1,728 nt of DNA from Naegleria gruberi (lineage: Eukaryota): the NCBI GenBank assembly GCA_000004985.1, contig GG739336.1; one strand, given 5' to 3'. The position numbers and the translations under genes were made by a program. The number at the start of each line of letters is the position of its first letter. The stretch's first letter is position 1. This document shows positions 1 to 1,728 of this stretch, one piece after another. The notes beneath the pieces were generated by a model, which made no database searches, was not told where the DNA came from, and saw nothing but the letters and a program-made list of their open reading frames with translations.

Positions 1-1
1 T

Positions 2-880
2 GAGGATCCCCCATCCACTTTCTACAATGAATTGAGAGTTGCTCCAGAAGAACATCCAGTCTTGTTGACTGAAGCTCCTTTGAATCCAAAGGCCAACAGA
101 GAAAAGATGACTCAAATCATGTTTGAAACCTTCTCAGTTCCAGCAATGTATGTTGCTATTCAAGCTGTCTTGTCCTTGTATGCTTCTGGTAGAACTACTG
201 GTATTGTTTTGGACTCTGGTGATGGTGTCTCTCACACTGTTCCAATTTATGAAGGTTATGCTTTGCCACACGCCATTTTGAGATTGGATTTGGCTGGTCG
301 TGACTTGACTGATTATTTGATGAAGATTTTGATGGAAAGAGGTTACTCATTCAATACTACTGCTGAAAGAGAAATTGTCAGAGATATTAAGGAAAAGCTC
401 TGTTATATTGCTTTGGACTTTGAAGCTGAAATGAAGGTTGCTGCTGAATCATCCTCTGTTGAAAAGTCATACGAATTGCCAGATGGTAATGTCATTACTG
501 TTGGTAATGAAAGATTCAGATGTCCAGAAGTCTTGTTCCAACCTAATTTCATTGGTATGGAAGCTGCTGGTGTTCATGAAACTACTTTCAATTCAATTGG
601 TAAATGTGATATTGATATCAGAAAGGACTTGTATGGTAACGTTGTCTTGTCTGGTGGTACTACTATGTTCGAAGGTATTGCTGAAAGAATGACCAAGGAA
701 TTGACTGCTATGGCTCCTGCCTCAATGAAGATTAAGGTTGTTGCTCCACCAGAAAGAAAGTACTCTGTCTGGATTGGTGGTTCCATCTTAGCGAGCCTTT
801 CGACCTTTCAGCAGATGTGGATAACAAAAGAGGAATACGAAGATGCCGGTCCAGGTATTGTCCACAGAAAGTGTTTCTAA
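2..880 (+). CDS. Actin, 5'-partial (window begins inside the gene). The in-frame translation from nt 17 ([39 protein letters not shown]...) through the C-terminal ...[38 protein letters not shown] aligns with conventional actin from about residue 89 to residue 375; the track ORF 32..880 begins at Leu94. Nucleotides 2-16 stay in frame but encode EDPPS where actin has the conserved KIWHH.
   Basis: Seen in sequence: a continuous 282-codon ORF ending at TAA 878-880. It carries near-complete actin hallmarks ([111 protein letters not shown]). Codon usage is almost entirely the yeast high-expression set (TTG Leu, AGA Arg, GGT Gly, GTT Val, GCT Ala, CAA Gln, GAA Glu, AAG Lys). No GT...AG intron interrupts the frame in the covered region. 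The gene symbol is left blank because the divergence makes it unclear whether this is the canonical housekeeping actin or a paralogue. Confidence 0.93.
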
Positions 881-1016
881 TTATTTTATTCGAAACATGT
901 TAATATTTAGATTGAGTGTAGTTCAATAACTACAATCAAGTTTGATGATATTTCTTTTTATTAAGAAGTTCTTTGCGAGTTTGTAAATGTAAAATAATAA
1001 TTGATTTATTAATTGA
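881..1016. terminator. A 136-bp AT-rich convergent intergenic spacer that must hold the 3' UTRs, poly(A) and termination signals of both genes. It contains yeast-type efficiency/positioning-like elements (TTATTTTATT 881-890, TAATAT 901-906, CAATAA 924-929, AAATAATAAT 992-1001, and TTTATT/AATAAA on the minus strand near 1005-1010).
   Basis: Seen in sequence: the region between the two stop codons is about 80% A+T and rich in TA/AATAA-type motifs. Yeast 3'-end formation uses degenerate UA-rich efficiency elements and A-rich positioning elements (established knowledge). Exact cleavage sites cannot be read from the sequence. Confidence 0.5.
917..934. other. Small perfect hairpin in the actin 3' UTR: TGTAGTT-CAAT-AACTACA (7-bp stem, 4-nt loop).
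   Basis: Seen in sequence: 917-923 is the reverse complement of 928-934. The element is short and in AT-rich DNA, so it may be chance. Confidence 0.25.
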
Positions 1017-1728
1017 TTACTTGGAGTGTTTCTTTTTCGATTCTTTCTTGGAAACTTTTTTCTTACTGACCTTTTTCTTCTTGCTATCAGTTTCCGAAGA
1101 AGAATCATCACTGTCTGACTCGACATGTTTCCTCTTGTTGTTTTTCACCTTCTTACTAGATTTCTTGGCCTTCTTGTTTGCTGAGCTAATTGCTTCACCA
1201 AGCTCTTTTTGGTGGGCGTTGGCAATTGTTTGTCTTGTCCTTTGTTTAGACTCATTCTTTGCCAAACGCAGCTCTTGTTGTCTTGTTGTAATGGCTTCTG
1301 AAATGTCTTGAGGAATTGAATTTAAAGATATGGTTTTGAGTAATAATTTTAAAATACCATTATTCTTCTCAGTGTTGTCAAAGGTAACATATTTACCTGC
1401 CAGCTCGTGCAAACTCTCTTCAGTCAATGTCAGTAATCCCCTAGCTAATGATTGTCTGGCTTCTGAATCGTGCTTAATGTACACACCTCCATACTCTTCT
1501 AAAAAACCATCTATACCTTGAATCTGTTCTAATTGCTTTCTCACTTCAAGAGTTCTGAAAAGCATATAACGATTTTTCATGAAATAACAGCGAGACTTAA
1601 TCTCGACCTCTGCATATCCACCGACAATAGGTTTCCCATGTGGTTCAAAACCATTCTCTCCTTTTTTGTATTCAACCATTTCATACTCTGACGAGGAGTG
1701 AACCTTTAATTCCATGTATCTTTCTGGA
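1017..1728 (-). CDS. Hypothetical nuclear/nucleolar-type protein of at least 232 aa. It has a structured N-terminal region of about 145 aa, a predicted helical/coiled middle (ITTRQQELRLAKNESKQRTRQTIANAHQKELGEAISS), and a lysine-rich, Ser/Asp-punctuated C-terminal tail (NKKAKKSSKKVKNNKRKHVESDSDDSSSETDSKKKKVSKKKVSKKESKKKHSK). The first ATG is at 1713-1715, but the frame (…SRKI-MELKV…) stays open to the window edge at 1728, so the true start may lie upstream of the window. Stop codon TAA (revcomp of 1017-1019).
   Basis: Seen in sequence: a 699-nt ORF on the minus strand with no in-frame stop between 1715 and the window end, convergent with the actin gene. The composition is protein-like and distinct from the AT-rich spacer. 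Codon usage is yeast-like but less biased than actin (mixed AAA/AAG, TTA/TTG). The C-terminus has basic NLS-like runs flanking an acidic serine cluster (SDSDDSSSETDS) that fits the casein-kinase-2 consensus S/T-x-x-D/E. Family assignment is inference only; I see no confident match to HMG-box, SRP14, Rpa34 or Loc1 sequences that I can recall. Confidence 0.7.
   Translation of the reverse strand, partial: PERYMELKVHSSSEYEMVEYKKGENGFEPHGKPIVGGYAEVEIKSRCYFMKNRYMLFRTLEVRKQLEQIQGIDGFLEEYGGVYIKHDSEARQSLARGLLTLTEESLHELAGKYVTFDNTEKNNGILKLLLKTISLNSIPQDISEAITTRQQELRLAKNESKQRTRQTIANAHQKELGEAISSANKKAKKSSKKVKNNKRKHVESDSDDSSSETDSKKKKVSKKKVSKKESKKKHSK
1021..1140 (-). repeat. Low-complexity purine-rich (minus-strand) coding repeat for the K/S-rich tail. 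It includes an internal near-tandem duplication KKKVSKK / KVSKK (aag aag aaa aag gtc agt aag aaa aaa gtt tcc aag aaa).
   Basis: Seen in sequence: the plus strand reads as pyrimidine-rich runs (ttctttttcgattctttcttggaaacttttttcttactgacctttttcttcttgc...), that is AAG/AAA/TCx codon iterations on the coding strand. Confidence 0.5.

What the first reader, a model, noticed from the sequence alone, without database searches (positions are those of the whole stretch)
785..850. Abrupt switch to non-preferred codons in the last ~30 codons of a highly codon-optimised actin gene
Upstream of about nt 785 the actin ORF uses preferred codons almost exclusively. Every Gln is CAA, every Glu is GAA, Leu is TTG except one CTC, Ala is mostly GCT, and Ser is TCT/TCA/TCC. 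Then, over the 15 codons from 788 to 832 (tta gcg agc ctt tcg acc ttt cag cag atg tgg ata aca aaa gag), 11 are non-preferred (TTA, GCG, AGC, CTT, TCG, ACC, CAG, CAG, ATA, ACA, AAA, GAG). GCC follows at 845-847. The patch is also locally GC-richer than the rest of the gene. It encodes the ultra-conserved [12 protein letters not shown](T/S)K segment, so selection on the protein does not explain it. Possible explanations are a gene-conversion tract from a differently biased paralogue or pseudogene, a chimeric assembly or primer-derived region, deliberate synonymous recoding (an engineered or marked allele), an overlapping functional RNA or regulatory element, or a programmed slow-translation patch before the C-terminus.
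Basis: seen in the sequence. Interest (0 to 1): 0.55.

Follow-up and report, generated by a model that had tools for sequence, protein, structure and literature searches.

The report
Synonymous codon island in Naegleria actin
One copy of the many actin genes of the amoeba Naegleria gruberi carries a real, roughly 50-base island of 17 silent changes to rare codons, most likely a scar of DNA copying between actin gene copies rather than an artefact or a functional signal.

Summary
Local codon adaptation falls to 0.05 against 0.73 for the gene, and 0 of 20,000 permutations reach that. The last 13 codons are normal again.

The window is an entire 1,728-bp orphan scaffold of Naegleria gruberi NEG-M. 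It still carries about 11 nt of cloning vector at its 5' end.

An independent metagenome contig (L002) has the same dip at the same place. It shares 9 derived silent changes, including a TCA->AGC serine switch. That excludes primer, vector, engineering and read-error explanations.

The other Naegleria actins lack the island: an N. gruberi transcript, N. fowleri, N. lovaniensis and three environmental copies. So does the actin of the related genus Willaertia. It is therefore not ancestral to the genus.

Inside the tract, window and L002 group together (9 to 0). Outside it the copies show no such grouping (5/5/9; p = 5e-7). The gene is a mosaic.

No RNA structure, Rfam family or repeat partner was found.

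Best reading: one short conversion or templated-repair tract between actin copies, followed by near-neutral drift. The donor was not found, because the N. gruberi genome could not be reached with these tools. Interest is low.

The parts
1..11 (.). Remnant of cloning-vector polylinker at the scaffold end. It is not Naegleria DNA.
   Evidence: Nt 2-11, GAGGATCCCC, is an exact 10-mer of the pUC-type polylinker ...TCTAGAGGATCCCC|GGG and ends at the SmaI half-site. The polylinker string itself was confirmed at 100% identity in plasmid records. In an N. gruberi transcript the homologous actin bases read GAAAAGATCTGG.
12..880 (+). 3' part of a conventional actin gene, cut off by the scaffold end. The stop codon TAA is at 878-880. 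The frame is clean from nt 17, and one base is missing near nt 15-16 compared with other copies.
   Evidence: Pfam Actin PF00022, E = 7.8e-112. 100% identity over 287 aa to N. gruberi actin NAEGRDRAFT_55094. Alignment to L001.
790..841 (+). The island: 17 silent substitutions relative to the standard Naegleria actin sequence. It encodes [18 protein letters not shown] with no amino-acid change. The lowest-CAI window is 788-832.
   Evidence: codon-by-codon comparison with 14 other Naegleria actin copies; CAI 0.051; 0 of 20,000 permutations; site patterns.
794..838 (+). Core of derived silent states shared with the independent contig L002: AGC at 794-796, plus nt 802, 808, 811, 814, 829 and 838. 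It contains the identical 23-mer TCGACCTTTCAGCAGATGTGGAT at 800-822.
   Evidence: 9 shared-derived sites, none for any other pairing; Fisher p = 5e-7.
842..877 (+). The last 12 sense codons, all in the standard preferred form. This is the 3' boundary of the island.
   Evidence: this stretch differs from L001 only at nt 850 (GGT/GGC, a change private to L001) and from N. fowleri only at nt 874 (TGT/TGC).
881..1016 (.). AT-rich spacer of 136 nt between two convergent genes.
   Evidence: Only the first 20 nt or so are weakly alignable with the 3' UTRs of L001 and L002.
1017..1715 (-). Convergent orphan ORF of 232 aa with a lysine/serine-rich tail. It is annotated 'predicted protein [Naegleria gruberi]', and it identifies the window as a whole 1,728-bp scaffold.
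   Evidence: P0121, 100% identity, longest contig 1728. (no Pfam family). (only one weak relative among 1.84 billion representatives).

Best explanation
The island at nt 790-841 is a short stretch with a different ancestry from the rest of the gene. In the N. gruberi lineage, one member of the large actin family had about 50 nt overwritten in a single templated event. The likely mechanism is interlocus (ectopic) gene conversion, or double-strand-break repair that used another actin sequence as template. That template encoded the same peptide but did not use the preferred codons.

The event predates the split between the NEG-M copy and the copy on environmental contig L002. Since then the off-optimum codons have drifted almost neutrally. 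That explains why the two copies differ about four times more inside the tract than outside it. Selection on a dozen codons in one of many actin copies is too weak to restore them.

Shown: the island is real and heritable, and its phylogenetic signal differs from that of the flanks.

Inferred: the templated mechanism, the direction (import rather than an unconverted relic) and the nature of the donor.
For: 1. All 17 changes in 52 nt are silent, in a fully conserved peptide. They include a TCA->AGC serine switch, which by single steps would pass through a non-serine codon. This points to copying from a functional actin template rather than to scattered point mutation.
2. The boundaries are sharp, with standard codons on both sides. 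19 of the 52 differences from L001 fall in 69 of 864 nt (binomial p = 8e-9).
3. Phylogenetic incongruence. Inside 782-862, 9 shared-derived sites unite the window and L002 and none support another pairing. Outside, the three pairings score 5, 5 and 9 (Fisher p = 5e-7).
4. An independent assembly (L002, an ENA metagenome) has the same dip: CAI 0.13 at codons 345-359 of 375.
5. The other copies use the standard preferred codons there. These are L001, the three environmental copies L013-L015, six N. fowleri copies, three N. lovaniensis copies, the divergent N. fowleri paralogue and Willaertia. The state is therefore derived.
6. Potential donors are plentiful. Actin-1 is reported to be encoded by up to 64 genes in N. 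gruberi (PMC9928731). The six N. fowleri copies differ by only 0-2 of 795 nt, which fits ongoing homogenisation or very recent duplication.
7. Window and L002 differ at 11 of 69 nt in the tract and at 4.2% elsewhere (p = 5e-4). This is expected if off-optimum codons evolve neutrally while preferred codons are held by selection.
Against: No donor sequence was found. The patch is not matched by the divergent N. fowleri actin paralogue (L016), by Willaertia actin (L017), by 80 actin loci in GTDB genome records, by JGI metagenomes (only a fungal actin shares the 23-mer, by chance) or by IMG/VR.

The DNA of the N. gruberi paralogues themselves could not be reached, so the key test was not run.

Seven of the 12 rare codons end in G or C (GCG, AGC, TCG, CAG, CAG, GAG, plus ACC nearby). 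That is not what a low-bias gene in an AT-rich genome would be expected to supply.

Only two sequences carry the tract. An unconverted-relic history, or two independent events, cannot be excluded.
Confidence: 0.55

Rival explanations
1. The changes accumulated in place. This copy has locally relaxed codon selection, or a local mutation hotspot. Silent changes built up one by one, while protein-level selection removed every replacement change.
For: The tract evolves fast between window and L002 (11 of 69 nt, against 4.2% elsewhere). At four sites (793, 799, 823, 826) the two copies both depart from the standard but in different ways. No donor was found.
Against: Translational selection acts on a whole mRNA, so there is no reason for it to relax over 17 codons and return to full strength for the last 13. 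The shared TCA->AGC serine switch needs a tandem change or a non-serine intermediate at an invariant residue. Nine shared-derived changes sit within 45 nt, while the flanks carry no comparable signal.
Confidence: 0.17
2. The tract is an unconverted relic. This locus is an old actin paralogue with lower codon bias, and standard copies have overwritten almost all of it by conversion. Nt 790-841 is what remains of the original sequence.
For: It fits the same mosaic signal as the main explanation. The tract lies near the 3' edge of the homology block, where conversion is expected to be rarer. The 3' UTRs of the copies are largely unalignable.
Against: It needs a second conversion that covers only the last 39 nt of coding sequence, right up against non-homologous DNA. 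One short imported tract is simpler. Outside the tract the window is no closer to L001 (33 differences) than to L002 (33 differences), so there is no sign of recent homogenisation within one genome. It is not verified that L001 comes from the same strain.
Confidence: 0.15
3. The tract is a functional, copy-specific cis element at the RNA or translation level. It could be a protein- or small-RNA-binding site, a recoding that escapes such binding, or a deliberate ribosome slow-down before the C-terminus.
For: The 23-nt core TCGACCTTTCAGCAGATGTGGAT is identical in window and L002 although the edges of the tract differ. In mammals, silent differences between the beta- and gamma-actin coding sequences do change translation dynamics and function (PMC5794254, PMC8328520).
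Against: There is no stable structure on either strand: the z-scores of the five folds run from -1.1 to +1.1. There is no Rfam match in the tract and no complementary partner in the window beyond a 10-nt chance match. The identical core holds only about 5 free synonymous sites, so its conservation is not significant. The standard copies, which are the multi-copy form sampled here, lack the tract.
Confidence: 0.07
4. The tract is an assembly or sequencing artefact. The tiny scaffold joins reads from two different actin copies, or contains low-quality read ends, near its midpoint.
For: The scaffold is an orphan of 1,728 bp. It starts with vector sequence and a probable one-base miscall, so read depth is probably very low. 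The tract lies near the scaffold midpoint (nt 864), where two end-reads of one plasmid clone would meet. That last point is inference only.
Against: All 17 changes are silent and in frame. The 3' boundary and the standard last 13 codons lie on the same side as the unique neighbour gene. L002 shows the same structure independently: standard codons, then the island, then standard codons.
Confidence: 0.04

Closest known systems
Interlocus (ectopic) gene conversion tracts in multigene families, and concerted evolution with mosaic paralogues (for example the Drosophila duplicates in PMC2588116 and the fungal ribosomal-protein genes in PMC6993855, both found)
   Same: A short, sharply bounded block of clustered substitutions in one family member. 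The block's phylogenetic signal conflicts with that of the flanks. The family is large, with up to 64 Actin-1 genes reported in N. gruberi (PMC9928731), and is otherwise highly homogeneous.
   Different: No donor has been identified. The tract lowers similarity to the bulk of the family instead of homogenising it. Its codons are richer in third-position G and C than expected for an AT-rich genome.
Function encoded by silent differences between mammalian beta- and gamma-cytoplasmic actin coding sequences (PMC5794254, PMC8328520)
   Same: Actin copies with identical or near-identical protein that differ by synonymous codons affecting predicted translation speed.
   Different: In mammals the silent differences are spread along the whole coding sequence and their effects were shown experimentally. 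Here the difference is a single 52-nt island in one minor copy, with no functional data and no sign of a conserved signal.
Rare-codon clusters proposed to pause ribosomes for co-translational folding (reviewed in PMC7488015)
   Same: A run of 12 rare codons in 15, in a highly expressed and otherwise optimised gene.
   Different: Clusters of that kind are expected to be conserved in position among homologues. This one is absent from the standard actins of N. gruberi, N. fowleri, N. lovaniensis and Willaertia.

Membership tests
Conventional actin (Pfam PF00022) | Full-length match to the actin profile and near-identity to known actins | tested here: met
   E = 7.8e-112, profile positions 83-410 of 410. 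100% identity over 287 aa to N. gruberi NAEGRDRAFT_55094.
Interlocus gene-conversion tract | Substitutions clustered in a short block with sharp boundaries, beyond what chance gives | tested here: met
   19 of 52 differences from L001 lie in 69 of 864 nt, p = 8e-9. 0 of 20,000 permutations reach the CAI dip.
Interlocus gene-conversion tract | The phylogenetic signal of the block conflicts with that of the flanks | tested here: met
   Inside the tract: 9 shared-derived sites for (window, L002) and 0 for other pairs. Outside: 5, 5 and 9 for the three pairings. Fisher p = 5e-7.
Interlocus gene-conversion tract | An identifiable donor paralogue carrying the tract sequence | tested here: inconclusive
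   No match in L016, L017, 80 GTDB actin loci, JGI metagenomes or IMG/VR. The N. gruberi genome's own paralogues could not be retrieved.
Vector-, primer- or assembly-derived artefact | The feature is confined to this one record and absent from independent assemblies | tested here: not met
   ENA MEGAHIT contig L002 carries the same dip and the 23-mer core. Vector sequence is present, but only at nt 1-11.
Structured cis-regulatory RNA element | Folding energy clearly below that of shuffled sequences, or a match to a curated RNA family | tested here: not met
   The z-scores of the five folds range from -1.1 to +1.1. No Rfam match overlaps 785-850, even at E <= 1.
Structured cis-regulatory RNA element | Compensatory base-pair changes among homologues | not testable with these tools
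   Only two sequences carry the tract (window and L002), which is too few for a covariation test.
Conserved programmed rare-codon (pause) cluster | The rare-codon cluster is conserved in position across orthologues and paralogues | tested here: not met
   In L001, L013-L015, N. fowleri and N. lovaniensis the lowest windows score CAI 0.37-0.60. None of them coincides with the island, although those of L001 and N. fowleri L003 lie in the neighbouring C-terminal codons. The codons at the site are the preferred ones in all of these and in Willaertia.

The most novel reading that the evidence does not exclude
The island is a selected, copy-specific tag in the mRNA. By recoding the most conserved stretch of the actin message, this paralogue would escape, or acquire, recognition by an RNA-binding factor or small RNA that acts on the standard actin mRNAs. 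One candidate setting, from my own knowledge of the literature, is the rapid loss of actin mRNA when Naegleria amoebae turn into flagellates. Alternatively, the island would slow ribosomes just before the C-terminus. Either way, silent sites would give an otherwise identical actin a distinct regulation.
Probability: 0.05. Interest if true: 0.6.

Novelty: new member of a known kind. Interest (0 to 1): 0.2.

Why it matters
If the reading is right, this is a clean small example of mosaic evolution in a very large, highly homogeneous protist gene family. It shows how a short templated event can knock a block of codons off their optimum, and how that block then drifts at close to the neutral rate while the rest of the gene stays pinned by codon selection.

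It has some practical value:
- The island is a natural sequence tag that distinguishes this actin copy from the dozens of others in read mapping or expression studies.
- The scaffold carries unremoved vector sequence, which should be trimmed.

It does not open a new biological question unless the island proves to be functional.

Tried and rejected
- **Primer, vector or engineered origin of the patch.** Rejected. Vector is present only at nt 1-11, and an environmental contig shares the patch.
- **Sequencing error at read ends.** Rejected. All 17 changes are silent and 9 of them are shared with L002.
- **State ancestral to the genus.** Rejected. N. fowleri (6 copies), N. lovaniensis (3 copies) and Willaertia have preferred codons there.
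- **Donor search.** The divergent N. fowleri paralogue L016 and Willaertia L017 do not match. An exact 23-mer scan of JGI metagenomes returned only an intron-bearing, GC-rich fungal actin, a chance match. A degenerate 27-mer scan of GTDB genomes found nothing, and the 23-mer is absent from IMG/VR. Among the actin loci with a comparable C-terminal motif (56 places across all fetched loci, which include the 80 actin-bearing GTDB loci), the best non-L002 match is 33 of 45 nt, close to the 30 of 45 of standard Naegleria copies. The one viral actin scores 28 of 45.
- **Retrieving N. gruberi paralogue DNA.** Failed. P0121 and P0037 are not on record in the contig index, and for P0025 only a transcript contig was returned.
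- **RNA structure, Rfam and repeats.** Nothing in the patch.
- **Finding the orthologous locus in other species through the neighbour gene.** No homologue in any fetched locus. The gene is an orphan.
- **Alignment of the 3' UTRs of window, L002 and L001 to test orthology.** Inconclusive.

Full report
**What the window is.** The + strand carries the 3' two-thirds of a conventional actin gene: frame from nt 17, stop codon at 878-880, Pfam Actin E = 7.8e-112. The 287 encoded residues are 100% identical to Naegleria gruberi actin NAEGRDRAFT_55094.

On the - strand, 136 nt downstream and convergent, lies a 232-aa ORF (1017-1715). It is identical to a 'predicted protein [Naegleria gruberi]' whose longest known contig is 1,728 nt, exactly the length of the window. 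The window is therefore a whole, tiny, unplaced scaffold of the N. gruberi NEG-M Sanger assembly.

Its first bases are not Naegleria DNA. Nt 2-11, GAGGATCCCC, is an exact 10-mer of the pUC-type polylinker and ends at the SmaI half-site. The next bases lack one nucleotide relative to other actin copies. The scaffold probably rests on very few reads, so I took the artefact question seriously.

**Checking the observation.** I used a codon table from six other Naegleria actins. With it, the worst 15-codon window of the gene is exactly nt 788-832, with local CAI 0.051. The gene scores 0.73 and the next worst window 0.67. None of 20,000 shuffles of synonymous codons among positions reaches this value. 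Twelve of the gene's 18 rare codons lie in those 15 codons.

Three corrections are needed:
- The rare set includes TTT, not ACC.
- GCC at 845-847 is the normal codon at that site.
- The feature is an island, not a switch lasting to the C-terminus. The 17 silent differences from the standard sequence lie between nt 790 and 841, and the last 13 codons are fully standard.

Third-position GC is 0.60 in the island and 0.34 in the gene.

**Is it an artefact?** No. I retrieved actin DNA from the following sources:
- an N. gruberi-type transcript (L001)
- four environmental Naegleria contigs (L002, L013-L015)
- six N. fowleri loci
- three N. lovaniensis loci
- a divergent N. fowleri paralogue (L016)
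- Willaertia magna (L017)

All but one read TTG GCT TCA TTG TCC ACy TTC CAA CAA ATG TGG ATy ACC AAG GAA or close variants, that is, preferred codons.

The exception is L002, a MEGAHIT contig from an ENA metagenome. It is as codon-optimised as the window elsewhere. At this place it reads TTG GCC AGC TTA TCG ACC TTT CAG CAG ATG TGG ATT ACG AAA GAA, and it has its own CAI minimum there: 0.13 at codons 345-359 of 375.

A feature found in an independent assembly of a different organism cannot be a primer, a vector, an engineered recoding or a base-calling error. In addition, all 17 changes are silent.

**A separate history for the tract.** I took four more distant Naegleria actins as outgroup. Within nt 782-862, nine sites carry a derived state shared by the window and L002: TCA->AGC at 794-796, and nt 802, 808, 811, 814, 829 and 838. 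No site supports any other pairing. Outside the tract the three possible pairings of window, L001 and L002 get 5, 5 and 9 sites. Fisher p = 5e-7.

Differences from L001 are also strongly clustered: 19 of 52 lie in 69 of 864 nt, p = 8e-9.

Window and L002 themselves differ at 11 of 69 nt inside the tract, against 4.2% outside (p = 5e-4). At four sites both depart from the standard, but in different ways.

The L002-only changes at the edges (ATT, GCT, GTT and others) are mostly swaps among preferred codons. The real tract therefore has about the same limits in both copies.

**Mechanism.** The most economical account is a single templated event, either interlocus gene conversion or break repair that used another actin sequence. 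It happened in the common ancestor of these two copies. It pasted in about 50 nt that encode the same peptide with unbiased codons.

The serine switch between codon families at an invariant residue argues for a template rather than for independent point mutations. So does the all-silent character of 17 changes.

After the event the codons were already off-optimum, so further silent changes were nearly neutral. That explains the fourfold higher divergence there. Selection on a dozen codons in one of many copies is too weak to restore them.

The family offers ample opportunity. Actin-1 is reported to be encoded by 4 genes in N. lovaniensis, about 15 in N. fowleri and 64 in N. gruberi (PMC9928731). 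The six N. fowleri copies I fetched differ by only 0-2 of 795 nt, as expected under homogenisation or very recent duplication.

What is shown is the reality, heritability and mosaic signal of the tract. The mechanism, its direction and the donor are inferred.

**Weak points.** I found no donor. The divergent N. fowleri paralogue and Willaertia do not carry the tract. Pattern scans gave only a chance match in a fungal actin:
- JGI metagenomes
- GTDB genomes
- IMG/VR

Among the 56 comparable actin regions found across all fetched loci, which include 80 contaminant or bacterial actin loci, none is closer than 33 of 45 nt. The one viral actin scores 28 of 45.

The decisive search, against the other N. 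gruberi actin copies, could not be run because that genome is not in the contig index. The G/C-ending rare codons (GCG, AGC, TCG, CAG, CAG, GAG) are also not what I would expect from a low-bias gene in an AT-rich genome.

**Rivals.**
- In-place accumulation under local relaxation or a mutation hotspot explains the fast evolution. It does not explain the sharp limits, the serine switch or the return to full bias in the last 13 codons.
- An unconverted relic of an old paralogue fits the mosaic signal. It needs an extra conversion of only the last 39 coding nt, up against non-homologous DNA.
- A functional element has a respectable precedent: silent differences between mammalian beta- and gamma-actin genes matter (PMC5794254, PMC8328520). 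Here, however, there is no structure signal, no Rfam family and no repeat partner. The identical 23-mer core contains only about five free sites. The standard multi-copy genes lack the tract.
- A read-join chimera is made unlikely by L002 and by the standard codons 3' of the island.

**Comparison with known kinds.** The feature meets two of the three defining criteria of an interlocus conversion tract: clustering with sharp limits, and phylogenetic incongruence. The third criterion, an identified donor, is untested for the relevant genome. It fails the tests for an artefact, for a structured RNA and for a positionally conserved pause cluster.

I file it as a new example of a known kind of event, of low general interest. 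The small residual chance that it is a selected copy-specific tag is what would make it interesting.

Noticed in passing
window 1-16: The scaffold begins with unremoved cloning-vector polylinker: GAGGATCCCC at nt 2-11, ending at the SmaI half-site. A probable one-base miscall follows (CATC-CAC against CATCACAC in other copies), which breaks the actin frame upstream of nt 17.
   Followed up: yes
window 1017-1715 (-): The convergent neighbour is an orphan ORF of 232 aa with a Lys/Ser-rich tail and no Pfam family. A search of 1.84 billion representative proteins found only itself and one 104-aa partial relative (P0122, E = 1e-12). No homologue lies next to any fetched N. fowleri or N. lovaniensis actin locus.
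   Followed up: partly
protein P0037 (N. gruberi NAEGRDRAFT_56150), C-terminal 55 residues: Another N. gruberi actin copy has 6 of its 9 amino-acid differences from the standard actin packed into the last 55 residues (S->L, K->T, V->I, L->F, Q->S, P->S). This region overlaps the one holding the island. It suggests that the 3' end of the gene is a recurrent site of mosaicism or decay in this family.
   Followed up: no
L003-L008 (N. fowleri) and L009-L011 (N. lovaniensis): Six N. fowleri actin loci encode the same protein and differ by only 0-2 of 795 nt, although their genomic neighbours differ. The three N. lovaniensis copies differ by 2-16 nt. This fits concerted evolution or very recent duplication.
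   Followed up: partly
window 782-850 compared with the standard copies: In the standard copies this segment hardly varies at silent sites, even between species: 0-4 differences in 69 nt, where the rest of the gene shows 4-9%. The numbers are too small to reach significance.
   Followed up: partly
window 554-637 (+): Sub-threshold Rfam match to mir-3533 (35 bits, against a gathering score of 104). It is most likely only similarity between actin coding sequences, not a microRNA gene.
   Followed up: no
window 816-824: The rare ATA codon creates TGTGGATAA, the reverse complement of the bacterial DnaA-box consensus TTATCCACA. This is almost certainly coincidence in a eukaryotic gene.
   Followed up: no
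L018-L097 (GTDB 'bacterial' genome records): Many bacterial and archaeal genome records contain eukaryote-type actin at 75-87% identity to the query. Most hits are short, low-coverage contigs, which suggests contamination. Some lie on long contigs, for example a 6.3-Mb Microcoleus chromosome (CP181291.1), cyanobacterial MAGs and myxobacterial MAGs, and could be genuine transfers.
   Followed up: no
L012 297-319 (-): An intron-bearing, GC-rich fungal-type actin in a JGI metagenome contains the identical 23-mer TCGACCTTTCAGCAGATGTGGAT. It is a chance identity, made possible by the invariant peptide.
   Followed up: yes
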